A DNA stretch of 30,695 bases, taken from contig KZ538245.1 in assembly GCA_000934665.2 (NCBI GenBank), positions 62,001 to 92,695 of the forward strand, in the 5' to 3' direction. Below are positions 11,828 to 30,695 of the stretch, piece after piece. How positions within the stretch are numbered: the stretch's first letter is position 1; each line of letters opens with the position of its first letter. This DNA comes from Catajapyx aquilonaris. Lineage: Eukaryota. The notes beneath the pieces were generated by a model. That model was given only the letters and a program-made list of their open reading frames with translations, ran no database searches and was not told the DNA's origin. A program made the translations under genes and the position numbers.

Positions 11828-14800
11828 ATGGCTCTTTTCCTGTGTGCCTCTGCTTTCTGCGTGCTCTTCTTGCAGGTGAGCATCATGGTGTGTGAATTAT
11901 TGATCAGGGATTGTTTTTTTTTAAAGTGTCTGGGCAGGTCATGTTGGAGGTCATGCTGAGCAATGTGGTGTCGATAATACATAATTACAAAAAAAGTACA
12001 ATAATCGACTACACATTTGTCAGGATGTAATCTCGAAATTAAAGATTAATTGTCCACTTGCAATATTTGCAGCGTCTTATATATCCGCGTGGCTCTCATT
12101 AAAAGAGACGAATATATTCTTTTAATGACAGCCATGGATTATAAGCAAATGTGCGAGTGCACATTTTTTATCGAGATTAAGTTAAACGCATTTTAAAAGA
12201 GTCATAGCTAAACGTACTTTACTGGTCAGTCACTGACCTCTAATTTTCCAGAAAAAAGTGGGGGAGAAAAATCCCAAACGGAGATAATAACAATAATCAA
12301 CTTCAAACGTATTCAATTTTTTATCGAGATTAAGTTAAACGCATTTTAAAAACAGTAACTTTACTGACCACGTCTATGACCTCCCAATTTTCCATAGAAA
12401 AATTGGGGAGAAAAAATTCCCCAAAAAAGAATAATACAATAATCAGCTTCAAAAACGTATTCGATTTTTTTCGAGATTAAGTTAAACGCGTTTAAAACAG
12501 CCACTTTACTGGCCAGTCACTTTACGTCTATGGCCTTTCAATTTTCCATAGAAAAATATTGGAAAGAAAAAATTCCAAAAAAAAGAGAGAATAATACATA
12601 ATCGGCTTCGAAAACGTATTAAAATTTTTTTCGAGATTAAGTTAAACGCGTTTAAACCAGCCACTTTACGTATATGACCTCTCAATTTTTCGAAAAAAAT
12701 TGGGGAGAATAATTCCCCCAAAAAAGAATCAACTTCAAGCGTTTTCATTTCGGTTTTTCTGTATTACCTTTAAGCCTTGGTTGAATCACTCTTAGTAAAA
12801 TATTGTTGGCAACAATTAATAATTACAAAATTAATTAGGCTAATTAAATCTTCGAGTGTGCAACCGGAATTATAGCGAGGTTTTCTGTTGAATTTCACAC
12901 TGGATTAGCCTATTGAAGTATAATTCACTCGTTTTAAGTGAATTTTTAAAATGCCAGATGCCTTATTAAGTGGTTTATTAAAATTAATATAAGAATTGAT
13001 TTATTGTTTCAGTTGATAGAAATATTTAAAAAAACACGTACTCATTCAAGTTCAGGATGACAGAATAGTTATTCAACATTTAGCGAGTTCAGCTGCCTTA
13101 GAAATTTGTTAATACGTATGAATATTAATTAATTAATTAATTAGCTTGTTTACCTCTGGGAACCCGTTAGGGCTTAATGGTAAGTTATTTATAAACATCA
13201 TAATCAATATTGTACGTATATGTTCATACGTCTATTATTATTGCGTGAAAAAATGTCACCAAATAATTTTTCAATGTAAAATTTTCACTACAATATTTTG
13301 TGACGAGTTGAGCAAATGTGAAAGAAAACTGTAGTGTTTTTGAAACCCGAACATGTCTGCTGGATCCTGTTGAAATGCTAACGGCACTAATCCATTATTG
13401 ATTAAATTCTTGAGGTTATTTCCAGAGCTCTCCGAGGCGTAATTACGTATGCAGAGAGCTGTCGTAATTAATCATTAAATCCGGCTGCCTGAAACTTTTC
13501 ACCCGGCCGTTGGTTTTCCAGGCAAAAAAAAAAAAGAGAGAAGCTTTATTCGCGTGGAATATGCAGCGCATAAATTATAATCCTCTCAACTGGTATGACA
13601 GCCTGCAAGACTCGTGTGAGCTTAGCGCACAGAGAGCGGTAATAAAACTTGAAAATGAAGGCTCAATAATGCAGGGTGCAACAGTGCGAAAATGTGCAGC
13701 ATGACATTAAAACTGCTACAATCGGATCAGTGTAAAAATGTCAAATAAAAATATTTATTATAAATTGCGTATGTATAATACAGTATCATTAATATTACCG
13801 TATTCATCCACCATTAATATTATAATAATATTACAATTATACACAGCTTATATTATATAATAATATTGTATGAAATACAGGGTGGTCCAACTTCAAGTGT
13901 CGTTTTATAACGGCTATTAATAGAAGCGCTTTACAATTGACGTCGCTGCTACGTCATCGCAAAATCACTGCTATTAATCGCCGTTATAAAACGACACTTG
14001 AAGTTGGTCCACCCTGTATTTATCATATATACTTGCAGACCTGCGATTCCTCTCCGCATCACAAGCGTCGTGAAATCCAACCTACAGGTGAGTCTTTTTT
14101 TTTAAATATTAATTTTTCAATATTTATCTTTAAAATTTTAATTTCGACCTAGACCAAACAACTATTATTAACTATGATTATGATAATATTGTTGATTTCC
14201 AGCCGAAATCTGCTCCCTATCCGTAGACAGAGGCACATGCCGAGGTAGTATCCACGCCTATTTCTATAACAAGGTGAGTTCAGCGCGCACTATCCTAAAT
14301 TTATGTTTGAACCTTTTGAACTCTTGTGACCTCTTCTTTTATGTTCCAGTCCAAAAATATGTGCGAAGTGTTTAAATACAGCGGTTGCGGAGGAAACAGC
14401 AACAGGTTCCGCTCCTTGAGCGATTGTTCTTCCAAATGCGTTTCATATCAGCCAACAGTGGCAACAAGTACAAATTCATCTGACGGCCCAAACAATCACG
14501 ACGAAGACTTTATCACAGGTCAGTTTTCCCCACTTTTAATAATATTTTATCAATATAAATGACATTATATTTATTTGCACAGTAAACATAACCGACACGT
14601 GTGAACTTCAGCCAGTAAAAGGAAACTGCCATCAATTGATAACCCTATTTTATTACGACGAGGTGAGCTCATCTTTTATACAGGGTGGTCCAAGTACAAG
14701 TGTCGTTTTATAACGGCGATTAATAGCAGTGATTTTGCGATGACGTAGCAGCGACGCGTAAAATGTCCCACTTCGGCAATTTTACACGTCGCTGCTACGT

Positions 14801-15225
14801 CATCGTTAAGCGCTTCTATTAATCGCCGTTATAAAACGACACTTGAACTTGGACCACCCTATATGATTTTTTTTTACGAGCGCAACCCAGTGCGCACTAC
14901 AGTTCGCGCAGAATGTACGGTTGGAATTAATAATAATTTGCAGGAAAGCGGTACCTGCGACCAGTTCGTGTACACTGGATGCGGAGGCAACGACAACCGA
15001 TTCGACAATCTTCGAGAGTGCGAGGCAGCGTGTCCTCCCGAACACGTGGCACACCCGTACCGGAGTACCGGCAAGACCCTGTACCGTCGAAAGAAGAGCC
15101 GGAAGCGGAAGCTGCTCTCCAGCATCATGAGGAAATCCATGAGAGGATCAGCTCCTGTCATCGGAGACGTCATTTCGCGACATGCTCTATCCATGTTGTA
15201 CATTGTATCTTTAGTCCTCGAATAA
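11828..15225 (+). CDS. Gene D: secreted double Kunitz/BPTI-domain serine protease inhibitor (TFPI-like architecture), exons 11828-11875, 14039-14087, 14203-14273, 14350-14518, 14583-14662, 14944-15225; 232 aa
   Basis: Signal peptide [20 protein letters not shown]; two complete 6-Cys Kunitz domains ([102 protein letters not shown]); all junctions GT-AG and in phase (0,1,0,1,0). Confidence 0.93.
12084..12139. repeat. Small imperfect palindrome (possible micro-MITE)
   Basis: tggctctcattaaaaga / tcttttaatgacagcca inverted pair with TA-rich flanks. Confidence 0.5.
12160..12745. repeat. ~150-160-bp tandem repeat, ~4 units, in intron 1 of gene D
   Basis: tcgagattaagttaaacgc recurs at ~12171, 12324, 12471, 12631. 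Confidence 0.88.
13878..14016. mobile_element. MITE-3 (Tc1/mariner-type, TA TSD), copy a
   Basis: TA|cagggtggtccaacttcaagtgtcgttttataacggc ... gccgttataaaacgacacttgaagttggtccaccctg|TA. Confidence 0.88.
14681..14861. mobile_element. MITE-3 copy b, inverted relative to copy a
   Basis: Same TIR with TA flanks; the internal segment is the reverse complement of copy a's. Confidence 0.88.
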
Positions 15226-16891
15226 ATAATAAAAAAATGGATACCAAAAAAAAGTACACGTGCGGAACTGAAGAAAATAAATGTATGGAATTTGCATCGA
15301 ATTATTTGTTTTATGTAAAAAATATATATAATAATTCAAAGGTAGCTGATTTTATCGTATAGATTTTCTAATCGTGGAAAGGATAATAACTTCATTGCCT
15401 ATTGGAAAAAAAAAAACCATGATGAAAATAGCCTTCAAATTGCTACCTTTCCCTCAATCAATACGGGCAATTATTTTGGGAGGTTCATTGCTCCATGACT
15501 CATGGGAGGGGGGGGGGGGGCTTTCAATTATTCACACCAAACACACACTTTAAAAGTTTAAAGGAAATAATTCAAACATGGCAAATAAACGTGACATTGA
15601 AATTTCAATAGCTGTGCTTCTGATGAAAACTTGGTTGCTGGTATGAACAATCGTTGCATATTCTGAATATGCAATTATTCATCAAAAATTTTAAATTATT
15701 ATCATTTAATTAGCTCTACATTACATGTGATATTTATACGCCATGTTTGCTTGATGGTGACGGTTTTCCTGCACATTTTTTTCCAGACATGTTGGCGGCA
15801 TATAAGGTATCTTTTATGCAGTTAAAAGTGCAGTGATCTGGCGATATCTCTGTCTCGGTTGATGCAAGCTTGACCTTTAATATAATTATTAAATGTACAT
15901 ATAACATCTTACGACTCTATACTCTTTGCATAAATCAAATTGCAAAAGTTTTACTGCAACCCAACTGTAAAAATATGTTCGAAAAATAGCTTACACGTCG
16001 TATTACTGTGGTAAAAATATACGTACCGGTATAGCTTCTAGTTCAGTTACATATTACACAAGTACGTGCAGTACTTTCATGCGCATGCAGTTATATAATC
16101 ATGCATAGTGCACTCACTTCATGATCAGGGGGAAAAAATTGTAATCGCAACCTTGTATTTCATCACTTATATGCCGAGCACCAGCAAAGGTCAAACTTCA
16201 TTTCGGGGTTTAAAAAAATTACAACATATTTTTTAAACTAAATTTGTATAGGTACCGGTATGCCCAACCGTACATAGTCCTTCCTATAAAATTGAGACTC
16301 TGCTCACCTAAGATAAAAATGTCTGCTGTACATTAATATTACGATTAGTCTAGATAAGCATTGTGATAGAACAAGTGCTATAAAAGGAGGCCGCCTATTT
16401 TAGGTGTCATAAATGGCGATTGTCTCCTTCAATATATAAATGTGGACAAGGTCAGCCGGATATTATCAGCAAATGACCTCTCGACCTCTGTACGCACTCT
16501 CTCGAGCCTGAGAAAGATATATCGGGATATTCGCACATAGTGTGACACTCTCAGGCAAGGAATGCAAGTCACGCATCCAATTGCAGGAGGGCTGACCTTT
16601 GACCCCCATACTTTTAACAAGTGCACACGTGGATATATCAAGTTTTAAGTCCCAGGATTCCTGAATGTTGGAGACCACGGTAGAGGGTGAGTCAAAATAT
16701 GAAGGTCATCCAGGCCTAATGTTGATTTTAAAAATATATATCTAGGAGAAATATTTAAACTCGTTTGCATTTTTCGCCAGTTTCAGACAGGCTGGGTCAT
16801 CCTACTTCAGAGATCAAGTAGTTGACCTGTTAGTGGACATTATAGGAGTGACCGCACCAATGAGTGACATCAGTCGGTGGGTCCTGCAGCC

Positions 16892-19800
16892 ATGAGAAAT
16901 AGCAACCACACCTTTTGGCTGTCTGCTGGTGTGATCGTCATCATGTTGTGCGCAGGTAGCGTGGGTCAAAGGACGCTGACCAATCGCGAGTGTCCTGTGG
17001 ATCAGAAAAAGACGAAGCCTACAGGTGAACAGTCTCATCAGACCAAGCTTAACATACTCTACACGGATGTGGTCATGCGACAAATAAAAAGGAAGATCAT
17101 ACCGTGCCAAGGACCAGGTGGTCCTCATGGTACCACACTGTCCATCACCATTCCGCCAAACTGCATCACAGGTGAGGCATTCACAAGTTACAACAACCAG
17201 ACAGTACAGAGAGCTTACCAACAATCATTGATATTTCCAACCGTGGATGCTGCGCTAACAGTGGTGCGCACTCGTGAAAAAACACCTTTCCTTATATAGG
17301 CTACCAATTGTCTTGAGTTTGTGTCTCTGTCCGGGGTGAGTCATCATTACTGATCACTCGGCAACGTGGTAAACGTCTGCCAGTTTGATCCCGAAGCGTA
17401 GCGTTGGAAATACATTCAGCGCAATATACACCCACTATACAGAGAGCTTACCAGCAATCATTGATATTTCCAACCCTGCATGCTGCGCGAACTGCTGTGC
17501 GCATTTGTACAAAAAAAATTATCTACATTGCTATAGACGATTTTTTTTACGAACGCGCACCCACACTCGCGCAAGTCCAGTGTTCCGACAACAACGTTGC
17601 CACAGTTAGGCTACTCCTCATTATGATACCAGGGAGCATATACTACATAAGAGGCGCAAACATTCGATTTCCGCGTCTCTCTGTTTGTGGCCGTTGCCAA
17701 GGCTGGCGGCCATTTTGAAGTGGGGGCAACGCCAACGAGGTATAAATAGGGTACAGGCAAAAATAGGGTCCGCCATCTTTGATTCGCGCGTGTTCTTGCC
17801 GTGTAGTTGCCATGGCCGCCAAAGCCATCAAAGATGGCGGACCCTATTTTTGCCTGTACCCTATTTATACCACGTTGGCGTTGCCTACACTTCAAAATGG
17901 CCGCCAGCCTTGGCAACGGCCCCAAACAGAGACACGCGGAAATCAATGGCGCTGACCGAAGTTAGCGCATCTTACGTAGTATGTGCTCCCTGCCGTTAGT
18001 CTCTATAAGGTTTGCTCCAGAGCCTTGGCAACGTCGCAAAAGTCGGCGTAGTGTTGGAAACAATATGCGCGAACTGTGTTGCGCACTCGGTTGAGATCAT
18101 CAAAGAAATTTATCTTATATTCATCTACCTTCATAATCGGATTGCACTGAAACTGCAAAATAACTTGGCCCAAATAAGTGGCATATTTTAACACCCTTTT
18201 TAGAAATAGCTTCTAGACTTTGCAGAATCTTCATAAAGACATGCCATCAACACGACAACATTCCTTCGCGTAACCATATGCTGTAAACATCCTCGCAGGT
18301 TTAATGTTTCCGGAGCTGCGGGTTTTACAGCTTGTTTTCTCTCGAGCTCAGCAGTAAATAACAAAATATGTCGTACGTGCGTCTGCCTTGAATGAAGGCA
18401 CGTCTCATAATACGTCTTTATAAATATACAAAAAAGATGAATAACCTTTGGAGCGCAAAAAAGGAGAGAGAGATGAGGCCATCTTGCAGACACAAATTGC
18501 GCAAATTCCGTATGTGTCAAAAACACCTAACTTAACACAGGGTGTGATGCACCCAGTCCAAAAATGGAGACGATGGATGTGGAATATTGCTCAAAGGAAC
18601 AAGCACTGTGGGAAAACGTGGCTTCTACTTTTAAAATAATTATTAAAATAATACAAGGAATATGGATGAATCAGGTTTTGCCCTAAACTGTCATGGCGGC
18701 ACATTTTTTTTTCGTTGCAGATATTTTATTAGTCGCTTCTCTTTCTGTAGATGAATATTTACGAGTGCTTACCAGCAATCATTGATATTTCCAACCCTGC
18801 ATGCTGCGCGAACTGCTGTGCGCATTTGTAAAAAAGAAAATATCTATACATTAGCCTACTATAGACGATTTTTTTTACGAACGCAACCGAGTGCGCACCC
18901 ACACTCGCGCAAGTCCAGTGTTCCGACAACAGCGTTGCCACAGTTAGGCAACCAATCGCGAACGTCGGCCATTTTGTTCCCTTCCAATCGTACACTCTAA
19001 GAAATGTCCGGGTTAAATATATTTATCCCGGAAAAAAGATCACTTTTGTCATCCCGGACATTTCTTAGAGTGATACAGAGTGTATACACTCAAAGAAATG
19101 TCCGGGTTAAATAACCATGACAAAAGTGATATTTTTTCCGGGATAAACCCGGACATTTCTTAGAGTGTAGCGTTGGAAATAATAAGTGCATCGCTTATTT
19201 TACCAGTACATCAACTATACAGGGTGTTAATCCTAAGCGTGTCACCAGAAAAGGTGGTGGTAGAAGGTGCAGGTGTGAGCATTTTTGCATAAGGAACTAG
19301 GGGTCGGAAACGCACCCTCACCGAGTTACGCCCCTTTCAAGTTTGAGGCAGGCAGTGTGCACGCGGCGGAGTGACTCGGTGAGGGTGCGTTTCCGACCCC
19401 TAGTTCCTTATGCAAAAATGCTCACACCTGTGCCCTCTACCACCACCTTTTCTGGTGACACGCTTAGGATTAACACACCCTGTAGAAAATATTTGCTAAT
19501 GCGAATAATAGTGTAACTGTGGTGATGCACACTCGGTTTTTCTCGTGTTAAAAATATTCATCTTACAGTTACTATAGAGTACATATGCCCTCCCCTTCTT
19601 GGATTTTGAACTTTTGCAGAGTGCTTATACCCTCAAAAATATAAAAATCCGAGTGCGGGTCACTGACGGGTCAGTTATCGTCCCGAATTTTTCTGCAGGC
19701 CTACTGCTCGAGAGATGAAAACTAGTAGAGAGAGTCAATCGCCTAGTAATATCAGTCAATCACCTTTTTTATCATCTATTTTTTTAAAAAAAGTCGGGTT

Positions 19801-20369
19801 TAAAATTAAGTTGTGTGGGTTCAAAGTTAACTGTTGTGTGACATCATGTTTCAGATTTCCCAGATGACAAGGAGGTGGTGATGAGGTACAGGATCCACCA
19901 GAAGAATGTCCAGGCGATCAAGAAGGCCCGTTTGCTCATACTTGTCCATCAGAATGTGAGTCGTCGTGAGCTGCGTAAATTGAGTCCGTACGTCAGAGCA
20001 CGAGGGATGACGATCCATGGCAGGCCAATGAGGAAGGGCAAACTGGTGGCCTTCGACGTGACCCCTGTCCTCCAGTCCATTTTCAGCGGTCAACTGGACG
20101 TGGACTACAACATGACATTTGACCTGTGGGTCACAGGACAAGATGAAAAGCAGATGTCACCCTGGAGAGTGTTCAGCATAGAGGAGGGTCATAACGGGCC
20201 TCTTCTGGACATCAAGTACAAGAAGCCCAAGTGTCACAGGACGGGATGGTTCGCGACACTCACCCTCGAAGTGGCACCAAAGTTGAGTCACCACGTGCCA
20301 GCTATGAGAAGAGTCTGGACTACTCTTAGATCGAGCAAGTTCAGATTGTTCTCCAGGCGCAGGAACTGA
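16892..20369 (+). CDS. Gene E: secreted TGF-beta prodomain-like protein without a cystine-knot domain, exons 16892-17171 and 19855-20369 (264 aa in the simplest model; 3' end uncertain)
   Basis: Signal peptide (FWLSAGVIVIMLCAGSVG); phase-1 intron at the same position as intron 1 of gene F; colinear prodomain motifs LNILY, AIKKARLLI, VAFDVTPVL, FDLWVTGQD, PLLDIKY. No CxGxC/CxC exon found before gene F. Confidence 0.75.
17180..17610. mobile_element. Cluster of MITE-2 fragments in intron 1 of gene E
   Basis: attgatatttccaacc, tgcgcactcg and ttttacgaacgc motifs; ~17445-17610 is nearly identical to ~18765-18948. Confidence 0.7.
17630..17992. mobile_element. MITE-1 copy 5
   Basis: cagggagcatatactacataagaggcgcaaac ... 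atgtgctccctg; no TSD visible. Confidence 0.92.
18993..19167. mobile_element. Two adjacent ~80-bp CACT-ended mini-MITEs (18993-19072, 19087-19167), mutually inverted, TA flanks
   Basis: TIR cactctaagaaatgtccggg / cccggacatttcttagagtg. Confidence 0.8.
19220..19482. mobile_element. MITE-4 (Tc1/mariner-type, TA TSD), near-perfect ~105-bp TIRs
   Basis: TA|cagggtgttaatcctaagcgtgtcaccagaaaagg ... ccttttctggtgacacgcttaggattaacacaccctg|TA. Confidence 0.9.
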
Positions 20370-20656
20370 GGTCAAAAGTGTGTCAAACTCATCAGGGAAC
20401 ATCAGGGGTCACTTTATGTAGAAAGGTCGTTTGGTCTACACAGCTTTGTTACTGAGATAATAGGCTTCAAATGGTCTATGCTGTTGATAGGTGCAAGCCA
20501 TAATTGATGACGTTTATCGCGTTCCACCAAAGACAACGACACCAGTGTGAACCCAGCTGTTCAAATGACCAACGTGCCGGATCCATCAACCAGGCGAATG
20601 AGAAAAAGTCTACTCGAATCACGCTAGAGGCTTGTGAGTAGCATACTTGGCTAGGT

Positions 20657-21005
20657 CAGGGAGCATATACTACATAAGAGGCGCAAACATTCGATTTCCA
20701 CGTCTCTCTGTTTGGCTGGCGGCCATTTTGAAGTGTGGGGAATGCCAACGAGGTATAAATAGAGTACAGGCAAAAATAGGGTCCGCCATCTTTGATTCGC
20801 GCGTGTTCTTGCCGTGTAGTTGCCATGGCTGCCAAAACCATCAAAGATGGAGGACCCTATTTTTGCCTGTACCCTATGAATACCTCGTTGGAGTTGCCCC
20901 CACTTCAAAATGGCCGCCAGCCTTGGCAACGGCTCCAAACAGAGAGACGCGAACATCAAAGGCGCCGACAGAAGTTTGCGCCTCTTATGTAGTATATGCT
21001 CCCTG
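20657..21005. mobile_element. MITE-1 copy 6
   Basis: Intact termini; flanks gctaggt / gttaagt (5 of 7 match, decayed TSD). Confidence 0.92.
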
Positions 21006-23736
21006 GTTAAGTAATTATGTGGTCCATACAGCCAATGGCAGGATGCAAATCATGCCAGCAACCAATCAGGATCATACAGGCCAAAAACATTTATTTCTGA
21101 TGAATATTGAAGTGAATTTTACATACTGATGTATAATATATACGACGTTCCAGATCAGTTTGTGAAGTTATATTTTTTCAAGATAATTATACCCGAATGT
21201 TTTGAGCTATGAATCCCCCAATGAATATTTATTAGAAATAGCCGGACATTGATGCCTGTGTATATAGGCTTCTTGAAGAGACTAGCAGAAGAAAATGGGA
21301 CGAATTAAAAAATTGCTGGTTTCTGATGAATAGTGTAAAAAAATGTAAATTTACTGTACTGTGCGTAACACTTGTTTTAAATAAAATGGAGGAGCAATTT
21401 TTGTACTGTAACATTGTACCACTTTTATCATAATTTATTATTTGAACTTTTTTGAATTCCTATGAATGTTTCTTCTGTTTTATTGTGTTCATACATGTCT
21501 TACACTTTTTACTTCGGTTTAGTATGGCCCTCAAAAGCGGAAAATATTGTCAGGCGAAAATTTCATGCGAACAACAAAATTTCACGCGGAAAAAATCATG
21601 GTGTAAAATTTTATGCTAAAAATCGCGAAAATCAAATCATGGTCTCATATGTGGCGATGTTGAAATTTTTAGGGATTCATTAAACAATTTTGAGGCCGAA
21701 ATGTTCTTACAATACTTTTGGAATGTGTCGTGAGTGTTTTTGTGTATTTTTGGAAGAAAAAATAATGTTTGGAGCTATTTTCACTATAGCTTGATACTAC
21801 ATATCAATAATTAATAATTATTATTCTCTCTCCGGAAACTTTTGGCAAGTATTATCATTTGTGTGAACACATTTACTGCTAAGCTAAACCCGCAAAAATA
21901 ATACCCAACAATATATTATTGCAGCAGTACCGGTAATATTATTTAGTCATGTATAATACCATAATGTACTACTCCGTTTATTTTTGAACAATGTATAATT
22001 ATTCTGTACAAGGCTCCAGGCCCTTCTTGTAATCTCTGTCCTCCAATAATAATTAACGAATTAATATCCTTTGGGAAGAAATGAAAATATTGCTTTATAG
22101 GCTGTGTGGCCTGTGCGCTGTACATTTTAAGTCATCATAATATTATAATCTATAGTTTTATAAGGTATGTTAGTTTCTTCCAGATGTGATTAAATGGTAC
22201 AAAAAAATGTGTTACCCGAAGTACAAAATAATGCCTTCCTTAGTAAAGTCTCCTACACGACTTTTCAAGTTTCTTTTACTGTCTTATGCATATGCCTTAC
22301 ATTTTGCAATATTTTTTATGAGGTGAAGTTTTATTCTGCTCGTTGTTGATATGCTAATAAATTTTATGCTGTAAGATATGGAAACGTGACATTATACAAC
22401 AAGTGATCAGCTGGTAACAATTGAACTGGTTTTTTTTGTACCTATTGTGTCTGCAAAGTTGGTTTTTAACAATTATGTTATCAGTACACAAAGGGAACAG
22501 TTGATTGGCAATAAATTTTTTACTTGCATTTTTTTACAGGATATGTTTATATAATATTAAACTTCATTTTCAGAGGGAATCGACAATAAATCAATCTTAT
22601 TAATAACTTAATGAAGAGTGGACCATCCTGTGATGATATTTCCGTGAGTGACTAATAATCAACAAAATTTCCACGTGTGTCACACAATATATTATATCGT
22701 CCAAACTGTTATCTAGCTCGACCGTGCTCTCGACCTTCAAGCCAATGCATCTCGCCTTACTCTGATAGCATTGCAGACCTCTGATTAGAAGGCTGCGTTG
22801 AAAGTATATATAAAAATGCATCTTTGTAACAGAGTCATGTTATGTCTGAGCACTTGTCTGACCTTCAAGAAGATTCAAAGCATGTCGTACTTTGTCGGAA
22901 ACAGGATTTCACGCGCACTTGGTATAAAAGTCACATTATGCGATGACAATGACCGCAAATATTTTCTGCTTATTCAATCATTTATGTATAGCCTATATAG
23001 TGCACAGAGTCAAAAGTCAACAAGAGACAGAAAAGATTGTTTACTCTAGAAGAAGGCTTTAAAATGAGCAACATTTTGGATTGTTGCTTCAATTACAATA
23101 TTGTAAACCATCAGAATTAATAAGCATTTCTTCCTTCCTAGCATTTGAGCTAAGTAGGCCTAATGTATGACCTAATTTAATTGACAAGTAGGATAAAAAA
23201 CAAAGCGACACATAGAATTGCAATAAGCTATAATAATAAATCATTAATAATAATTACATGTAGAACCGTAAGTTGTTGTTTTCCTATATAACTTGGTATA
23301 TGCTGCTAATGAAGCGCAAATTTTTTTTGCTTCAAAATCTCTCCGAATTTAGATCTCATTTCATCAGCAGCTTTTTGGCGAGGGAAAAAAATTCGCACAG
23401 GCCTCCAAACTGTCCAAATTTGGTAGGGGTCAGCGACTAATTTTTCAAACAAATAATTTTAAATCTACGCATCGAGACGTTTTTGGAGCCGTCGACGTAT
23501 CCAAATAAAGTCATGCGCATATGGTGTTGTTGTTGCTCCCCTTTTTTATATATATATAGCTCATCATATATGCAAACATATGCGTAAAATGTGCAAATAC
23601 GCACATTACGATGTCTCGAGACGAATTTTTATTGCTGGAAAACACATCGTCTGAAAAGATTTTGTTACACACGGTCAATGATCACTCGTGGTACATTTCA
23701 GCAGGAAAAAAAAACACCTACAAAGAATACTAAACA

Positions 23737-23762
23737 AGTAAGTAAGTAAGTAAATGAATGAA

Positions 23763-23817
<55 letters not shown>

Positions 23818-23819
23818 AT
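23737..23819. repeat. Tetranucleotide microsatellite (AGTA)n-(TAAA)n
   Basis: Read directly. Confidence 0.95.
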
Positions 23820-24288
23820 GGAGTGTGCAATGAGCCAGACTGTTGACAGAACTCTTGTACGTCCTCTTTCTAATATTCTTCATTTTTAGGTAGATCAGAA
23901 GTTATGATTTAAATATTATATCGTCAGTCTGTAATATAATGATAAATATGGTGTTGCTATTCTGTAAGGGAATTTATGCGAATATTCAAGAACGCGTTTT
24001 ATGCAAAAAATGGACGGAATTTCTGGCAAAGATTTCGTTTCTTCTTCTGTAAAGTTGGGCTTGGGTGACTAATAAGGGAATGAATGCAGGGAAAGGAAAA
24101 CCACCCCCTTTGGCTGAGGCTGCAGCAAAAGTCATTTAGCCTGTGGACATGAGGTGGTGTATGATACACGTGGTGTGGTCAAGGTGGGCCAATCAGGGAG
24201 CAGCAAAAGAAAAAGGCGTTGGCGCGAAGAAACACGAGCGTCTGGTTTCCCAGCACATGAAGCCATGTTGCTATATTCAGTGGTCGCC

Positions 24289-27200
24289 ATGGCTCCAACT
24301 CAAGTGTGTGTGCTGCCTTTTCGCTTCCTGATGATCTGCCCTCTGACCTCTCTTCTGGTGCTTTTGGTCATCACCAGTGTTGCTGCCACCAGCATAGCTC
24401 CAAGGACTGAAGAGAAGCAGGCAATAAGCGTCAGGCAACACATCCTTTCTGCACAAATTGACCACGAACCGGAAGAGGAGGAAGAGGAGGTCAACAACGG
24501 CACCAGGATGGTCACCCCTGCATACCTGGAGCTTCTCTACCAGTTTGTGACCACCGAGTTGGAAGGTCACGACCTGGGAAGAAACACCAGAGGCGTGTTG
24601 GCCAAAGCGTTTCTTCCAGTCGCAGTTACAGGTACTGGGTGTCTCCAACGTTATTTCTTTTACTACGCGACGTGGCAGTTCAAACTGGCCGTGACAAAGC
24701 CACAATAACGTTCGTTGGCCACAAAACGGTTGCATAACCTAAAATAAGCGCCTAGCTTCGCAATTAACTACAATTATCATGCTAATGGACGGACCTTGCC
24801 TAGCAGGGACGCCCATTCGCACGCCGCCACCAGGGAGCATATACTACATAAGAGGCGCAAACTTCTGTCGGCGCCTTTGATGTCCGCGTCTCTCTGTTTG
24901 GGGCAGTTGCCAAGGCTAGTGGCCAGTTTGAAGTGTGGGCAACGCCAACGAGGTATAAATAGGGTACAGGCAAAAATGGTGTCCGCCATCTTTGATGGTT
25001 TTGGCGGCCGTGGCAACTGCACGGCAAGAACACGCGGGAATCAAAGATGGCGTTCGTTGCCTGTACCCTATTTATACATCGTTGGCATTGCCCACACTTC
25101 AAAATGGCCGCCAGCCTTGGCAACGCATCGCCCCAAACAGAGAGACGCGGAAATCGAATGTTTGCGCCTCTTATGTTTAGTATATGCTCCCTCCACTTCG
25201 TCCTGTAGTAAAGATCAGCCGTTATTATTAATTGTATTGTTTTGCAGAGGACGGACCCAACAGAATCAGCCTGATCTTCAATTACTCGGACCAGCTACAG
25301 GATGTGACGTCGGCCGAGTTGATCTTCAGTTTGAGACGCAATGTTGATTGCAACGTGTCCGAAATCAACGTGCATCTGGAACGAGGAGACATGCCGGTGG
25401 TGCTGTACGACGGTGTGTTTCCAGCTGATAACGACGAGGAAATTGGCGACGATCGACATGTGCCATTTGACGTGAGTTCTGCTGTGCATCGGTATGACAG
25501 CTTGGAAGACAGCTTCGTGTTTAACCTGGAGGTCAAAGGTCATGACGACCTGTCAGTGTCGGATATCCTAGACTTGGACACCACAAGTCAGCAGCCTCTT
25601 CTCGTGGGATACTATGTCGGTGAGTTATACAAAGCCGGATGTTGCGCATTAAATTTCGCTTATATAAGAGTTGTTATCTCTGTGGGAAAAATTCCGAACA
25701 CAATGTCTCTTTTCCTATATATATGGCAGCAACGAAGATGCCTTTGGGCACAGCAGTGTCTCACTGGCGACGTCAACGACGCTCGGCACCACTTCAGGAA
25801 CTGGAACCTGAAGAGGACGATCCAACCAGCACAGTCATCACACCTTTATCTGAAGTTGAGGAGGAATCACTGTGGTCACCTGGACCAAAAGACTACTGCG
25901 AGCTGCGGAAATGGGTGGTACCAACCGAGGCCCTCAGGTTCCCCTGGATGCTTCTTCCGGACAGACTGACACCCAACTACTGCATGGGGACATGCCCATC
26001 ACCACTGCACCATTCCTACTACAATTCAAGCACCAACACACTCATCCGAGACAGAATCAGGTGAGTGAAGACACAGCAGCAAGAGAAACGAACCGGTTCC
26101 GGACCCGCCTCACTATTGACTGGATTGCCAACCCATACAGTATACAGTACCGTAACTTACTAGCAGGATACGTGGATACCCGGCCTGCTTTTCTGCCTTT
26201 TCGCCTCATGCGGCCAAAGATGACCTCGGAGGTCAAGTCGAATGTGCTAAAAACCTTCCCCGTTAAAAACTACCCCTAATGATCCCCCTGGGGCATATGT
26301 CGAGGCCTCCATATTGATTTGCATCGGGAACATACAGAAAATAATGCGCTAAAAACCTTCCCCGTTAAAAACTACCCCTAATGATCCCCCTGGGGCATAT
26401 GTCGAGGCCTCCATATTGATTTGCATCGGGAACATACAAGTCCAATGAGCTAAAAATCTTTCCCGTTAAAAACTACCCCTAATGATCACCATGGGGCATA
26501 TGTCGAGGCTTCCGTATTGATTTGCATCGGGAACATACAGACATACAAGTCCAATAATGTGCTAAAAAACCTTCCTCGTTAAAAACTACCCTTAATGATC
26601 ACCCTGGGGCATATGTGGAGGCCTCCGTATTGATTTGCATCGGGAACATACAAGTCCAATGAGCTAAAAACCTTCCGCGTTAAAAACTACCCCTAATGAT
26701 CTAGATCACCCTGGGGCATATGTGGAGGCCTCCGTATTGATTTGCATCGGGAACATACAGACATAACAAGTTCAATAATGTGCTAAAAACCTTCCCCGTT
26801 AAAAACTACCCCTAATGATCACCCTGGGGCATATGTCGAGGCTTCCGTATTGATTTGCATCGGGAACATACAGACATACAAGTCCAATAATGTGCTAAAA
26901 AACCTTCCTCGTTAAAAACTACCCCTAATGATCACCCTGGGGCATATGTGGAGGCCTCCGTATTGATTTGCATCGGGAACATACAGACATAACAAGTTCA
27001 ATAATGTGCTAAAAACCTTCCCCGTTAAAAACTACCCCTAATGATCACCCTGGGGCATATGTCGAGGCTTCCGTATTGATTTGCATCGGGAACATACAGA
27101 CATAACAAGTTCAATAATGTGCTAAAAACCTTCCTCGTTAAAAACTACCCCTAATGATCACCCGGGGGCATATGTGGAGGCCTCCGTATTGATTTGCATC

Positions 27201-27453
27201 GGGGACGTACAGACATACGTATTGAAATATGTATAAGAAATAATATTGATACAGTGTGCTGATTGGTGTTTTATTTTCCAGGACAATCCACAGCGGCCTA
27301 CTATCATCATCGTCCAGTCAAAGCGTGATCCCAGAGAGTCACTGCGTCCCGATCGAGTTTGCTCCGACCACTTTGCTTATGGAGGAGAAGGAAGGGTACT
27401 TCCGACTGGACATTGTCCACGACCTGATCGTGTCTCGATGCGGCTGCAGATGA
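24289..27453 (+). CDS. Gene F: divergent TGF-beta superfamily ligand precursor, exons 24289-24631, 25248-25619, 25730-26060, 27282-27453; 405 aa
   Basis: Kozak gccATGG; hydrophobic signal segment; prodomain motifs PAYLELLY, VPFDVSSAV, PLLVGY; furin site RRQRR; mature domain C...W..P....NYCMGTCP...HCVP...IVSRCGCR*; junction phases 1,1,2 consistent. Subfamily not assignable by eye. The ATG at 24331 is an alternative start. Confidence 0.93.
24831..25192. mobile_element. MITE-1 copy 7 in intron 1 of gene F
   Basis: Intact left terminus; right end lacks the last base; left flank ccgccac, right flank ccac. Confidence 0.92.
26160..27238 (-). mobile_element. Putative non-autonomous Helitron containing a satellite array, in intron 3 of gene F
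   Basis: Minus-strand 3' end CTAG|T at 26160-26163 next to the IR agcagg...cctgct; minus-strand 5' TC at 27238-27237 (flanking base is T rather than the canonical A). Confidence 0.5.
26240..27218. repeat. ~101-119-bp tandem repeat, 9 units
   Basis: gctaaaaaccttccccgttaaaaactacccctaatgatc recurs at ~26247, 26348, 26449, 26561, 26663, 26782, 26894, 27008, 27121. Confidence 0.95.
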
Positions 27454-27608
27454 TAGTGTTTATAAGTGTGGTCTTATTTTGGTCGGCATAACTTTGATCT
27501 GTTGATAGTAAATTAATTGGAATGACCATAAAATGTACAGAACGATCAGTTATTTGTATGAATTTGAGCCTTTAAATTTTGGAATAATTTCACTCACGGG
27601 GGGGGGGG

Positions 27609-27614
27609 NNNNNN
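27609..27614. other. Assembly gap (6 N) inside a poly-G run
   Basis: Ns in the sequence. Confidence 0.99.
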
Positions 27615-28788
27615 GGGGGGGGGGAATGCAAATATTTGCAAATTTTTAAAATATTACATTTCGGCCTACAACGACCAATTTCTTTGACATATCATGTTTT
27701 ATCCAATGGCATTATTATTGAAGATATTATTTTCATTGGGTAATTAGTGTATGTCAAAATTGATCAGTATTTTGATCGTTCTACAAATTAAACCAAATAA
27801 GCTTTAATTACGTCGTACAACAATTTCCTGCAGAATTTGTTGTAACTCGGCTGATGTGTTCATATTGCAAATTACAGCCTGTATTATTAATTGATCTAGA
27901 ATGTTTTAGCTCAGGGTTTGATGCATGTCCATACTAAAAGATTATTATTATTTTTTCCACAAGTTTTTTTCATAGCTTTTAACACCCAGCATGAAAGTAC
28001 ACAATTAGTTTTGTTTTTTTAAAATGTATGGCTAAATACATTTTTGATTTATTGTTTCTAACAGTGAAAAACTAGAGCAGCATTTTGATAGAGACAAGAT
28101 TCATTATAATGCAACATTATCATTATCAAAATAATTAAATTGGTTGAATAAACTGTATTTAATATTTTCATTAACTTGCCAAGTAACAGATATAGGTCTT
28201 CAACTTTAACTTATATTGGTGCAACTGGCCATAATGAAGGATTAATTTGCCATCACTTCACCCCCTCAATTTCCAATAGTAAAATTATTATTATTAAAAA
28301 TGGGGGGTATGAGCTCCTGGCATCCCTAATTTTATTGCTTGTACAGTAGGTATTAGTGCATGGTTGTAAAGCATATTTTGTGATCTGCGCACACTCCATT
28401 TTTATAAGAGTAACAGTGGTACTAACTAACTGATGCATTTACCGGCATTTATAATATTAAAATGTACGCAAAACGAGCTGGCCTGCCACTTGAAAAGTAA
28501 CGGTGGCAAATTACAGTTCAGTTTTGGCCCAGATGGAAAAGAAAAAAAAATATCGCAAACCAGACGCCATACAATTACTTCAGTAAAGTGGCAGGCCCTG
28601 ACTATTATTATGCTACCTCACAACTGTTTTTTTTAAAGAAGTATTTACCCTGCTGTAAGCTGTAAAAATAATAATAAAACCATAAAACCTTCAGCACTGT
28701 TCTATATTATAATTATAAATCCAGCCAACGTGAAGCAACACACCACAACATCCACAAAAATCCCTGCAGTTTCCGTCTCTTTTCCATT

Positions 28789-29260
28789 TTAAAATGGTTT
28801 CAGTACGTTAGAGAAAAAAAATGAATTTCTGCGTAGTATCTCCAAAGTGCTCCTCAATGTTGTTACCAGTTTTGTCTTTTCTTTCATTTTCTTCTGTGTA
28901 TGTTCTAACCTGTACCTCAGGAAATCATTTTCCTTCTCGAGCATTTTGGTTTTGTGCAATATATTTTCATACCTCTGCAAAGTTGCAATACCTTCAACCC
29001 TTACAACATTTCCTTCAGAATCGATATCCACAATTCCATGACCTATAGTACTGCAGTGCTGCCTGCTTTGCCCATTGCTTCTGTACCTATTTCCACTTCG
29101 TCATAATCATCCAATGGACAACTTCTTTTTGCCTTCTCCTTTCTTGCCTAGACGCCCGAGCCGCTGCATTTTTCTGTCGTCTTGGGTTCGTGAGTGACTT
29201 ATTCAAATCCAACTTCAGGGAAGGCACTGAACCCACTGATGCATTCCTCTTTATAATACC
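28789..29260 (-). pseudogene. Frameshifted coding relic, possibly the THAP-end/coiled-coil region of a DNA transposon protein
   Basis: Three consecutive frames read ...VGSVPSLKL...RRQKNAAARASRQERRRQKE / PLDDYDEVEIG... / GHGIVDID...KTKMLEKENDFLRYRLEHTQKKMKEK...; SVPSL resembles the AVP box that ends THAP domains, but no THAP Cys/His residues are present. Confidence 0.3.
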
Positions 29261-29446: not shown

Positions 29447-30383
29447 AGGTGTAGCCAACCGCCAACGGAACAGTGTGGCCAACATATGACAGGTGTAGCC
29501 CTTAGACCATATACAGGGTGTTTATTGTAACTCTGCAAAGACTTTCAGGGGTAATGGAGGGGACCAAGACAAGTATTTTTGACATAGGAACCCGTGTCCG
29601 GAAACGCCATCTAGAGGGGGTTCATAGACAAGGAACGGGTGCGCTCAGATGCGTCACGCGGGAGGCGCTAGGCGAGCGGACTGTTTTGTTGATAGATGGC
29701 GCGCAGTTGTTGCCAGGTTATGGCGTACTGCGTCGTTGTAAGTAAACAACTACGCGTTACGCCATAACCTGGCAACAACAGATCCGCTGTTTATTATCCG
29801 CGCATCTCCTAGGATGCGTACTTTAGTTGCTAGATGACTCTGCTGTTGCCACGTTATGTCACATCGCATCGTTGGTTACTATCCGAGCGCCATCTATCAA
29901 CAAAACAGTCCGCTCGCCTAGCGCCCCCTCCTGACGCGTCTGAGCGCACCCGTTCCTCGTCTATGAACCCCCTCTAGATGGCGTTTCCGGACACGGGTTC
30001 CTATGTCAAAAATACTTGTATTGGTCCCCTCTACTACCCCTGAAAGTCTTTGCAGAGTTACAATAAACACCCTGTATAAGGTGTAGCCAACGGGACAGTG
30101 TAGCCAACGGAACAGTGTAGCCAACAGAGAAGTGTAGCCAACGGAACAGTGTGCCAAACAGAGCAGTGTAGCCAACGGAACAGTGTAGCCAACGGAACAA
30201 TGTACCCAACATGACAGTGTAGCGAGCAGTGTAGCCAACGGAACAGTGTGGCCAACATGACAGTGTAGCCAACGGAACAGTGTACCCAACAGAGCAGTGT
30301 AGGTAACAGAGCATTGTAGCCAACAGAGCAGTGTAGCCAACGGAACAGTGTGGCCAACATGACGGTGTACCCAACAGAGCAGT
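29447..30383. repeat. 17-bp minisatellite (gtgtagccaacggaaca and variants), split by MITE-5
   Basis: Units at 29447-29500 and ~18 units at 30080-30383. Confidence 0.92.
29514..30074. mobile_element. MITE-5 (Tc1/mariner-type, TA TSD), ~190-bp TIRs plus an internal hairpin
   Basis: TA|cagggtgtttattgtaactctgcaaagac ... gtctttgcagagttacaataaacaccctg|TA; inner IR gttgttgccaggttatggcgta / tacgccataacctggcaacaac (~29706-29779). Confidence 0.92.
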
Positions 30384-30695
30384 CTGTTCCGTAGGCTCCA
30401 CTGCGAGTGGGTGGTCTGTCAGGTTACGCAACTTCAATCGAATATTACTTGAATCGCTATAAAAATTACATTAGTGACAACAACAACAACAACTAACGGA
30501 CGCAGGTTATCCAACAACACCGGTGTCACTAATAATAATCTAATAATTTTGTCTGGTCCGGTCCTTCTGTTGGCGACACTGCAACCAGCTGATAGAAGCC
30601 AGAGACTACAAAGTAGTCAGACTCGCCACGCAATGTTATTTGGCGTTCGCGTGAAAATCCGGCCGCCCGCATGAACTTGGGCTTGCGCCCGTTAG

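What the first reader, a model, noticed from the sequence alone, without database searches (positions are those of the whole stretch)
16892..27453. Tandem TGF-beta pair: a prodomain-only paralog upstream of a full-length ligand
Seen: genes E and F are co-oriented, both start with a signal peptide, share a phase-1 intron at the same point (PPNCIT|D vs PVAVT|E; both exons end ACAG|GT) and align motif by motif (KLNILYTDV/YLELLYQFV; VQAIKKARLLILVHQNV/LQDVTSAELIFSLRRNV; VAFDVT/VPFDVS; FDLWVTGQD/FNLEVKGHD; GPLLDIKY/QPLLVGYY). Where F splices to the furin-site and cystine-knot exons, E has no strong donor and runs to SRRRN-stop. E is highly diverged yet still an open frame, which argues against a decaying duplicate. 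Established: free prodomains of TGF-beta1, myostatin and GDF11 bind and inhibit their ligands in trans, and prodomains direct folding and heterodimer choice. Inference: E may be a dedicated, genome-encoded prodomain antagonist, chaperone or matrix tether for F.
Basis: partly seen in the sequence, partly recalled or inferred. Interest (0 to 1): 0.82.

Follow-up and report, generated by a model that had tools for sequence, protein, structure and literature searches.

The report
Prodomain-only TGF-beta paralog beside a ligand
Next to a normal but very divergent TGF-beta family ligand gene lies a transcribed gene for a secreted protein that weakly resembles only the ligand's prodomain and has no growth-factor part, so it may be a natural free prodomain, though its function is untested.

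Summary
F (24265-27453, 4 coding exons, 413 aa) is a genuine TGF-beta family precursor. It has a hydrophobic N-terminus, an RRQRR site and a six-cysteine knot that matches Pfam TGF_beta. Two of its introns are confirmed by spliced contigs of run X1. E (16892-20369, 2 coding exons, 264 aa) is co-oriented and has a hydrophobic N-terminus. A spliced 5'UTR contig covers its start codon, and another contig runs colinear across its stop codon. No cystine-knot exon is detectable anywhere else on the + strand.

E resembles F's prodomain only weakly, but above chance:
- 21% identity in an alignment that two aligners reproduce, and 5 of 3000 shuffles reach its score.
- It is the best of the control ORFs in the window.
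- Both have a phase-1 intron acceptor about 11-12 residues before the first conserved block.
- Protein-language-model features of both exons give the same two top clusters (CBM96, with TGFb_propeptide clusters lower in both lists).

Pfam, PDB and database searches are blank for E. They are equally blank for F's own prodomain, so they cannot decide. AlphaFold models were too poor to use.

My odds: E is a real coding gene ~0.8; it is prodomain-derived ~0.75; it acts as a trans-acting prodomain on F or another ligand ~0.3. Main rivals are a transcribed relic and an unrelated secreted protein.

The parts
16548..16686 (+). E 5'UTR exon (5' end is a lower bound)
   Evidence: Run X1 contig record 1 covers 16548-16685/6 and is joined to 16780/1-16907, skipping 94 nt with GT..AG ends.
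16781..17171 (+). E first coding exon: ATG at 16892, hydrophobic N-terminus, ends ACAG|GT in phase 1
   Evidence: Sequence. In-frame stop at 16865-16867 upstream of the ATG. The donor at 17172 scores 8/9, the best phase-1 donor in the ORF. The hydrophobic maximum lies at residues 10-24. The X1 contig covers 16781-16907. The donor itself is predicted only.
16860..16895 (+). 11-codon upstream ORF whose TGA overlaps E's ATG (ATGA)
   Evidence: Read directly from the sequence. It lies inside the exon covered by the X1 contig.
19855..20228 (+). E last exon, part 1: region aligned to F's prodomain arm (A.L, FDVT, F.L.V.G.D and PLL blocks)
   Evidence: Alignments; shuffle statistics. The codon-usage model trained on F gives +0.199 bits/codon, above all 41 non-coding controls. 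Protein-atlas neighbours are CBM96 and TGFb_propeptide.
20229..20369 (+). E last exon, part 2: 46-47-residue basic tail (net charge +10) with no counterpart in F, then stop TGA at 20367-20369
   Evidence: The codon model is negative here (-0.24 bits/codon). X1 contig record 2 (20240-20684) is colinear across the stop with 1 other letter.
24265..24631 (+). F coding exon 1: hydrophobic N-terminus and the N-terminal part of the prodomain
   Evidence: The donor at 24632 scores 6/9 and is predicted only; two other phase-1 donors also score 6/9, at 24566 and 24650.
25248..25619 (+). F coding exon 2: prodomain arm
   Evidence: The donor is confirmed by the X1 joint 25618>25729, GT..AG. Protein-atlas top hits are CBM96 at 0.94, with TGFb_propeptide clusters lower in the list.
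25730..26060 (+). F coding exon 3: end of the prodomain, RRQRR site (25768-25782), first half of the cystine knot including CxGxC
   Evidence: Pfam TGF_beta positions 2-49, E 1.4e-4. CxGxC motif at 25981. X1 joints on both sides. PDB matches to activin/BMP2 chimera, GDF11, GDF8 and BMP7.
27282..27453 (+). F coding exon 4: second half of the cystine knot, ends CGCR-stop
   Evidence: Pfam TGF_beta positions 50-104, E 1.1e-5. X1 joint 26057>27279, GT..AG. Best PDB match BMP2, E 4e-4.

Best explanation
E is a real, transcribed gene. It encodes a secreted protein of about 264 aa that is a very diverged relative of the prodomain of its downstream neighbour F. The similarity lies mainly in the arm part, encoded by the exon after the shared phase-1 intron. 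E most likely arose from an old tandem duplication that kept the promoter and prodomain exons and did not keep the furin-site and cystine-knot exons.

Shown here: the gene structure, a spliced 5' exon, a contig colinear across the stop, collinear similarity above chance, and the absence of any second cystine-knot exon in the window.

Inferred: the protein is made and secreted. It works as a free TGF-beta prodomain, binding the growth-factor domain of F (or pro-F, or another ligand) non-covalently in the secretory pathway or outside the cell. In that way it would modulate folding, latency or availability of the ligand. F lacks the interchain cysteine, so its dimer would be non-covalent and might depend more on prodomain-type partners. 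E's basic tail and its extra cysteines could attach it to matrix or to a partner. Those two points are speculation.
For: Gene anatomy:
- The gene model has canonical splice sites and an in-frame stop upstream of the ATG.
- Run X1 holds 0.90 of the sampled words of 19855-20630.
- Its contigs show a GT..AG-spliced 5' exon reaching the ATG, and a contig at 20240-20684 colinear across the stop.
- The same run confirms F introns 2 and 3.

Coding signal:
- E's frame is the best of three under a codon model trained on F (+0.068 against -0.39 and -0.22 bits/codon).
- The arm region scores +0.199, above all 41 non-coding controls (maximum 0.042).
- GC3 is 0.64 in E and 0.61 in F.
- The chance of 264 open codons at this composition is 2.7e-6.

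Relationship to F:
- Two aligners give the same collinear alignment with 23 invariant columns.
- 5 of 3000 shuffles reach the score, reversed controls give z ~0, and E is the best of 30 control ORFs (z 4.8 against 1.07 for the next).
- Both acceptors are phase 1 and lie 11-12 residues before the aligned Y.
- The genes are in tandem on the same strand.
- By protein-language-model features, E exon 2 and F exon 2 have the same two top clusters (CBM96: 0.89 for E, 0.94 for F). E's third hit is a chordate TGFb_propeptide cluster (0.88, 141 shared features).

No growth-factor part:
- tblastn with F finds only F's four exons.
- CxGxC and CxC-stop occur together only in F.
- Pfam TGF_beta is absent from all 102 other window ORFs of 70 aa or more that were scanned.

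Background: myostatin propeptide binds and inhibits the mature ligand (abstracts of PMC4520684 and PMC6472743, seen in the search listings).
Against: - Pairwise BLASTP of E against F is not significant (best E 0.096), and exon 1 shows no similarity at all.
- Pfam TGFb_propeptide matches neither of the 2 E pieces at E <= 10. It also misses both F prodomain pieces, so this test lacks power.
- phmmer of E exon 2 against 1.84 billion representatives gave 1 hit, a repeat artefact. There is therefore no evidence of conservation in any other organism, and no dN/dS.
- The atlas scores for E are below 0.9 and its recognition value (2203) is under the 2300 mark, so by the tool's own rules they are leads only.
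- Both AlphaFold models are of low confidence (pLDDT 54 and 50), so the fold is unverified.
- E's last 46 codons show no coding-type codon usage, and an open run of that length has a chance of 0.10.
- The coding intron of E and intron 1 of F rest on prediction only, and F has three equally scored phase-1 donors.
- Nothing here measures binding or any effect on signalling.
Confidence: 0.45

Rival explanations
1. E is a transcribed relic of a partial or truncated duplicate of a TGF-beta family gene. It is still spliced and still open, but it has no function of its own. The tail after the PLL block would be read-through into former non-coding sequence.
For: - The last 46 codons lack coding-type codon usage (-0.24 bits/codon), and their openness has a chance of 0.10.
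- No homologue turned up in any database searched.
- There is no growth-factor part.
- A short upstream ORF overlaps the start codon.
Against: - At 21% identity to F the duplication is old. An unconstrained frame of 264 codons would stay open with a chance of about 3e-6.
- The hydrophobic N-terminus, an 8/9 donor, the acceptor and F-like codon usage and GC3 in the arm region are all retained.
- If the donor had been lost recently, cystine-knot exons should still be recognisable downstream. None is.
- This argument fails if the loss was a recent deletion in a gene that was intact until then.
Confidence: 0.25
2. E is a lineage-specific secreted protein unrelated to TGF-beta prodomains. On this reading the similarity to F, the intron phase and the adjacency are coincidence.
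For: - BLASTP E-values are 0.1 or worse.
- There is no Pfam hit and no PDB hit to any prodomain.
- Fold searches with the model give only unrelated low-Z rows.
- Atlas scores are under 0.9.
Against: - The semi-global score is reached by only 5 of 3000 shuffles, and E is the best of 30 control ORFs.
- Phase and position of the acceptor relative to the first aligned block are the same.
- The two top atlas clusters, out of 7.7 million, are the same as for F's genuine prodomain exon.
- F's own prodomain fails the same Pfam and PDB tests, so those blanks do not discriminate.
Confidence: 0.18
3. E is not prodomain-only. Its growth-factor exons would be reached by alternative splicing or read-through into F's exons 3-4, or they lie outside the window or were lost in assembly.
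For: - The exon-exon structure of E's coding part is not confirmed by RNA here.
- A strong donor-like site sits inside the last exon at 19956 (8/9).
- E and F are co-oriented and 3.9 kb apart.
- Contigs can miss rare isoforms (tool note).
Against: - An X1 contig runs colinear from 20240 across the stop to 20684.
- The 19956 donor is phase 0, while F's acceptors need phase 1, 1 and 2, so joining would be out of frame.
- None of the 12 listed joints links E to F.
- There is no assembly gap between E and F; the only N run is at 27609-27614.
Confidence: 0.07

Closest known systems
Cleaved prodomains of TGF-beta family precursors (latency-associated peptide of TGF-beta1; myostatin and GDF11 propeptides)
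   Same: Secreted, and related by sequence order to a prodomain arm. The conserved blocks A.L, FDV[TS], F.L.V and PLL appear in the order I recall for family prodomains; that order is recalled and was not tested against a family profile here. The expected mode of action is non-covalent binding of the growth-factor domain. Myostatin propeptide binding and inhibition is stated in the abstracts of PMC4520684 and PMC6472743 (search listings).
   Different: Those prodomains are made as part of the same polypeptide as their ligand and released by furin cleavage. E is encoded by its own gene, has no furin site followed by a growth factor, and carries a basic 46-47-residue tail with no counterpart in F.
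Stand-alone TGFb_propeptide-domain proteins of choanoflagellates (Richter et al. 2018, PMC6040629; one passage read)
   Same: The propeptide-type domain is encoded in a protein that has no TGF_beta growth-factor domain.
   Different: Those organisms have no TGF_beta domain at all, so no ligand can be regulated. E sits directly beside a full ligand gene in an animal-type genome, and unlike those proteins it does not reach the Pfam profile.
Bacterial CBM96 / DNRLRE-domain proteins (PF24517)
   Same: They are the nearest neighbours of both E exon 2 (0.89) and F exon 2 (0.94) by protein-language-model features. Some of these clusters also carry PF00688 on 13-26% of members.
   Different: They are bacterial carbohydrate-binding modules. 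The link comes from an embedding search only, with no alignment or E-value. Pfam itself gave no CBM96 hit for E or F.
Family members that evolved into antagonists (inhibin alpha: title and abstract of PMC2832003, listing; Lefty: recalled)
   Same: A duplicate of a ligand gene turned into a modulator of the pathway.
   Different: Those keep the cystine-knot domain and act through it. E would act through the prodomain alone.
Ligands without the interchain cysteine (GDF9, BMP15, GDF3, Lefty; recalled), as a comparison for F
   Same: F has six knot cysteines. In the alignment to BMP2, H stands where BMP2 has the first C of its CC pair.
   Different: F is not assignable to any of these subfamilies. 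Its best PDB E-values are only 4e-4 (BMP2) and 3.5e-3 (activin/BMP2 chimera).

Membership tests
TGF-beta superfamily ligand precursor (applies to F) | C-terminal cystine-knot growth-factor domain (Pfam PF00019) | tested here: met
   Exon 3 matches profile positions 2-49 (E 1.4e-4, 23.0 bits). Exon 4 matches positions 50-104 (E 1.1e-5, 26.6 bits). Each half alone is just under the 27-bit cut-off, and together they cover the whole profile. CxGxC and CxC-stop are present. PDB hits are BMP2, GDF5, GDF8/11 and activin.
TGF-beta superfamily ligand precursor (applies to F) | Signal peptide, prodomain and a basic RXXR cleavage site before the growth factor | tested here: met
   The hydrophobic maximum is at residues 22-36. 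RRQRR lies at residues 260-264, upstream of the first knot cysteine. No signal-peptide predictor was available.
TGF-beta superfamily ligand precursor (applies to F) | Seventh cysteine for the interchain disulfide | tested here: not met
   The growth-factor part has six cysteines (positions 303, 331, 335, 378, 410, 412). H aligns with the first C of BMP2's CC. Some accepted family members also lack this cysteine (recalled).
TGF-beta superfamily ligand precursor (applies to E) | Cystine-knot growth-factor domain in the same gene | tested here: not met
   E's frame stops at 20367-20369. An X1 contig is colinear across the stop. There is no tblastn, motif or Pfam sign of a second knot in the window.
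TGFb_propeptide domain (PF00688) (applies to E) | Match to the family profile | tested here: inconclusive
   0 of 2 E pieces match at E <= 10. The positive control also fails: 0 of 2 F prodomain pieces match. Profiles against PDB sequences are blank for E, for F and for the E+F alignment.
TGFb_propeptide domain (PF00688) (applies to E) | Collinear similarity to a genuine prodomain (that of F) | tested here: met
   21% identity with 23 invariant columns. 5 of 3000 shuffles reach the score, and E is the best of 30 control ORFs. Local BLASTP is not significant.
TGFb_propeptide domain (PF00688) (applies to E) | Prodomain arm fold (beta-sandwich with two helices) | tested here: inconclusive
   AlphaFold2 gave pLDDT 54 (single sequence) and 50 (with F as the only other row). 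Foldseek and VIA-align rows were unrelated, with best Z 4.4. The order of predicted strands and helices fits the aligned blocks, but that is weak.
TGFb_propeptide domain (PF00688) (applies to E) | Gene structure shared with family members (phase-1 intron just before the first arm strand) | tested here: met
   E and F both need a phase-1 join at acceptors 19853-4 and 25246-7, which lie 11-12 residues before the aligned Y. The donors are predicted only. That this intron is conserved across the wider family is recalled, not tested.
Trans-acting prodomain inhibitor or chaperone (function) | Binds a growth-factor domain and changes its signalling | not testable with these tools
   This needs protein binding and Smad reporter assays.

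The most novel reading that the evidence does not exclude
E is a selectively maintained, genome-encoded free prodomain. On this reading it is a secreted partner that binds F, a neighbouring ligand with no interchain disulfide, or pro-F in trans. It would set F's folding, dimer choice, latency or matrix storage. That would make the E-F pair a two-gene version of the pro-complex that every other known family member encodes in one polypeptide.
Probability: 0.27. Interest if true: 0.8.

Novelty: new variant of a known kind. Interest (0 to 1): 0.52.

Why it matters
Every characterised TGF-beta family prodomain is made together with its own ligand. Regulation by free prodomain is known only after cleavage or from engineered proteins. 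A separate gene for a prodomain beside a ligand gene would be a new way to tune a TGF-beta signal: the dose of inhibitor or chaperone would be set independently of the ligand. It would also be a natural model for propeptide-based inhibitors.

It also exposes a blind spot. Genome-wide surveys define the family by the growth-factor domain. [quoted passage not shown] Prodomain-only paralogs would therefore be missed by such surveys.

The two phrase searches found nothing: 'prodomain-only' with 'TGF' matched no paper, and no listed paper held 'lacks the mature domain'. I did not find such a gene described in three other keyword searches either, judging from their listings. These searches cover open-access text only.

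Tried and rejected
Relatives:
- The search for homologous proteins, in the 'longer' length class, found none with F exon 2, with F exon 3 or with the E+F alignment.
- Two metagenome scans, with E exon 2 and with the F exon 3 core, found none.
- phmmer of E exon 2 against 1.84 billion representatives gave only P0001, an 860-aa protein of four repeats. Its score is the sum of four weak stretches. Pairwise BLASTP gives E 0.67, and its Pfam hits have 0 stretches passing on their own. I rejected it as an artefact.
- No whole genome is held for this window, so paralogues could not be sought.
- Earlier findings of the scan: nothing by place, by sequence or by words.

Structure:
- Both AlphaFold2 jobs gave low-confidence models.
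- Foldseek against PDB (no match at E <= 0.001) and VIA-align wide (best Z 4.4) listed no TGF-beta family pro-form. With such models this says nothing about the fold.

This is no evidence either way.

Sequencing runs:
- No RNA holder was listed. The single holder, X1, is of unrecorded kind. I treat it as RNA-derived only because 7 of its 12 listed joints are GT..AG introns of three genes.
- The body of E's first coding exon (16908-17171) has next to no cover in X1.
- No joint was listed for E's coding intron (17172-19854) or for F intron 1. These two introns therefore stay predictions, and the blanks are not evidence against them.

Other:
- Rfam over the window gave no family.
- Literature searches for intron-position conservation gave nothing usable.


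Full report
WHAT IS THERE

The window is eukaryotic DNA with spliced genes. Gene F has four coding exons: 24265-24631, 25248-25619, 25730-26060 and 27282-27453. They give 413 codons with intron phases 1, 1 and 2. Pfam TGF_beta matches exon 3 at profile positions 2-49 (E 1.4e-4) and exon 4 at positions 50-104 (E 1.1e-5). An RRQRR site lies at residues 260-264, before the first knot cysteine. The only CxGxC plus CxC-stop pair on the + strand is in F. The best PDB sequence matches are BMP2 (E 4e-4), GDF5, an activin/BMP2 chimera and GDF8/11, all weak. F is therefore a genuine but very divergent family member. Its growth-factor part has six cysteines, and H stands where BMP2 has the first C of its CC pair, so the usual interchain disulfide is missing.

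Gene E lies 3.9 kb upstream on the same strand: 16892-17171 plus 19855-20369, 264 codons, stop TGA at 20367-20369.

RNA-TYPE EVIDENCE

One public run (X1, kind not recorded) holds 0.90 of the sampled words of 19855-20630. When laid on 14000-28500, 7 of its 12 listed joints are GT..AG introns. Four belong to an upstream Kunitz-domain gene, one to E and two to F, so its contigs behave as transcript contigs.

For E:
- One contig joins 16548-16686 to 16781-16907 across a 94-nt GT..AG intron. E therefore has a 5'UTR exon, and its ATG exon is transcribed and spliced.
- Another contig (20240-20684, one other letter) is colinear across the stop codon.

For F, introns 2 and 3 are confirmed exactly as predicted (25619|25730 and 26060|27282). 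E's coding intron and F's intron 1 were not bridged and remain predictions.

For both of those introns the acceptor side is tightly constrained. The open frames of the downstream exons start at 19842 and 25232, only 12-15 nt before the CAG acceptors, and both require a phase-1 join. E's donor at 17172 (8/9) is the best phase-1 donor in its ORF. F has three equal candidates (6/9) at 24566, 24632 and 24650.

IS E CODING?

An in-frame stop precedes the ATG. The strongest hydrophobic stretch of the protein is at residues 10-24. Under a codon model trained on F, E's frame scores +0.068 bits/codon against -0.39 and -0.22 for the other frames. The part aligned to F's arm scores +0.199, above the best frame of all 41 non-coding control windows (maximum 0.042). 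GC3 is 0.64 in E and 0.61 in F. The chance of 264 open codons at this composition is 2.7e-6. The last 46 codons do not look coding by this measure (-0.24), and their openness alone has a chance of 0.10.

IS E RELATED TO F'S PRODOMAIN?

Local BLASTP says no on its own: best E 0.096 for exon 2, 1.1 for exon 1 and 0.14 for the full proteins. It has the A.L, N-V, FDV[TS], F.L.V.G.D and PLL blocks in the same order, 23 invariant columns and 21% identity, and it places the two introns in the same column.

The semi-global score of 30 is reached by 5 of 3000 shuffles (z 4.7). Reversed-sequence controls give z ~0. When F exon 2 is compared with all 30 window ORFs of 120 aa or more, E's exon is the best non-self match (z 4.8, next best 1.07). 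Exon 1 contributes nothing (z -1.2 to -1.5).

In the protein atlas, E exon 2 and F exon 2 have the same two top clusters. Both are CBM96 clusters, at 0.89 for E and 0.94 for F. E's third hit is a chordate 'TGF-beta propeptide' cluster (0.88, 141 shared features), and clusters carrying PF00688 appear lower in both lists. By the tool's own rules, scores under 0.9 are leads only. The value here is the agreement with the positive control.

That these blocks are the hallmark blocks of family prodomains in general (for example the FDVT block followed by a helix) is my recollection. It was not tested against a family profile.

TESTS WITHOUT POWER

- Pfam TGFb_propeptide matched none of the four prodomain pieces, two of E and two of F, even at E <= 10.
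- PDB sequence searches with E, with F and with an E+F profile found no pro-form.
- All three word-index searches and both metagenome scans were blank.
- The exhaustive phmmer search with E exon 2 gave one hit, which is a repeat artefact.
- F's undoubted prodomain fails in the same way, so these blanks do not argue against E. They do mean that conservation of E is undocumented.
- Both AlphaFold2 models were poor (pLDDT 54 and 50) and the fold searches on them are meaningless.

DOES E REALLY LACK A GROWTH FACTOR?

- tblastn with F finds only F's own four exons; the remaining hits have E >= 3.4 and none lies between E and F.
- No other + strand frame has the knot motifs together.
- None of the 102 other window ORFs of 70 aa or more matches TGF_beta.
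- Within E's last exon, the donor-like sites at 19956 (8/9, phase 0) and 20126 (6/9, phase 2) are not at the homologous point and do not fit the phases of F's acceptors.
- The X1 contig reads straight through the stop.
- The only assembly gap (27609-27614) lies downstream of F.

MECHANISM

What is shown is a transcribed, apparently coding, signal-bearing gene with weak but above-chance prodomain-type similarity to its ligand neighbour and no growth-factor part. The step to function is inference. Prodomains bind their growth factors non-covalently and can inhibit them; for myostatin this is stated in the abstracts of PMC4520684 and PMC6472743 (listings). A free prodomain encoded beside a ligand could therefore act as inhibitor, chaperone or storage partner.

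The N-terminal part of a prodomain, which for myostatin carries the inhibitory core (abstract of PMC4520684), is exactly the part of E with no detectable similarity to F. That tempers the antagonist reading.

The age of the split (21% identity), together with an intact 264-codon frame, argues for constraint. The argument fails if E was a full ligand gene until a recent deletion.

The basic tail (net charge +10 over 47 residues) may be functional or may be read-through.

COMPARISON AND NOVELTY

Stand-alone TGFb_propeptide proteins are reported from choanoflagellates, which have no ligand domain (PMC6040629, one passage read). Antagonists derived from ligands, such as inhibin alpha (PMC2832003, listing), keep the knot.

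The phrase 'prodomain-only' together with 'TGF' matched no paper, and no listed paper held 'lacks the mature domain'. Three other keyword searches, judged from their listings, turned up no animal gene that encodes only a prodomain next to its ligand. Family surveys select on the growth-factor domain (PMC10763453, passage read). Only open-access text was searched, and supplements were not consulted.

I rate it a new variant of a known kind, of moderate interest. The anatomy is fairly well supported, the homology is probable but weak, and the function is open.

VERDICT

Odds:
- E is a real coding gene: ~0.8.
- E is prodomain-derived: ~0.75.
- E's main isoform is prodomain-only: ~0.85.
- E is a functional trans-acting prodomain for F or another ligand: ~0.3.

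Noticed in passing
window 27340-27345 (F exon 4): F has H where BMP2 has the first C of its CC pair, and only six cysteines in the growth-factor part. The usual interchain disulfide is therefore absent, and F would form non-covalent dimers at best.
   Followed up: partly
window 16860-16895: An 11-codon upstream ORF lies in E's 5' leader. Its TGA overlaps E's start codon (ATGA), which is a possible translational control element.
   Followed up: no
window 17663-17992, 20676-21007, 24829-25125: Three copies (about 91-96% alike) of a foldback or MITE-like element with internal inverted arms. They sit in E's intron, just 3' of E, and in F's intron 1. An X1 contig skips 24720-25195 (476 nt) and has 10 other letters there, which may be an allele or a copy without the insertion.
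   Followed up: partly
window 26249-27260: A tandem array of a ~113-bp unit (8 copies of a 137-nt reference, 69-100% alike) fills most of F's intron 3.
   Followed up: no
window 14084-15225: An upstream + strand gene has at least two Kunitz/BPTI domains (Pfam E 5.6e-11 and 3.1e-10) and four short GT..AG introns (64-281 nt) confirmed by X1 contigs. No joint links it to E.
   Followed up: partly
window 19953-19961: A strong donor-like site (AAT|GTGAGT, 8/9, phase 0) lies inside E's last exon, just after the A.L block. It could give a minor isoform.
   Followed up: no
window 20976-22044: X1 contigs match 20976-21586 and 21651-22044 exactly, downstream of E's stop. This could be a long 3'UTR of E (poly(A) hexamers at 21304, 21380, 21679) or a separate transcript.
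   Followed up: no
window 27590-27625: An assembly gap of six N (27609-27614) flanked by poly-G runs lies about 150 nt after F's stop codon.
   Followed up: no
window 28792-29100 (- strand): An ORF with a weak KxDL-motif match (E 5e-4, below the cut-off). It is followed at 29900-30470 by a repetitive ORF-rich stretch.
   Followed up: no
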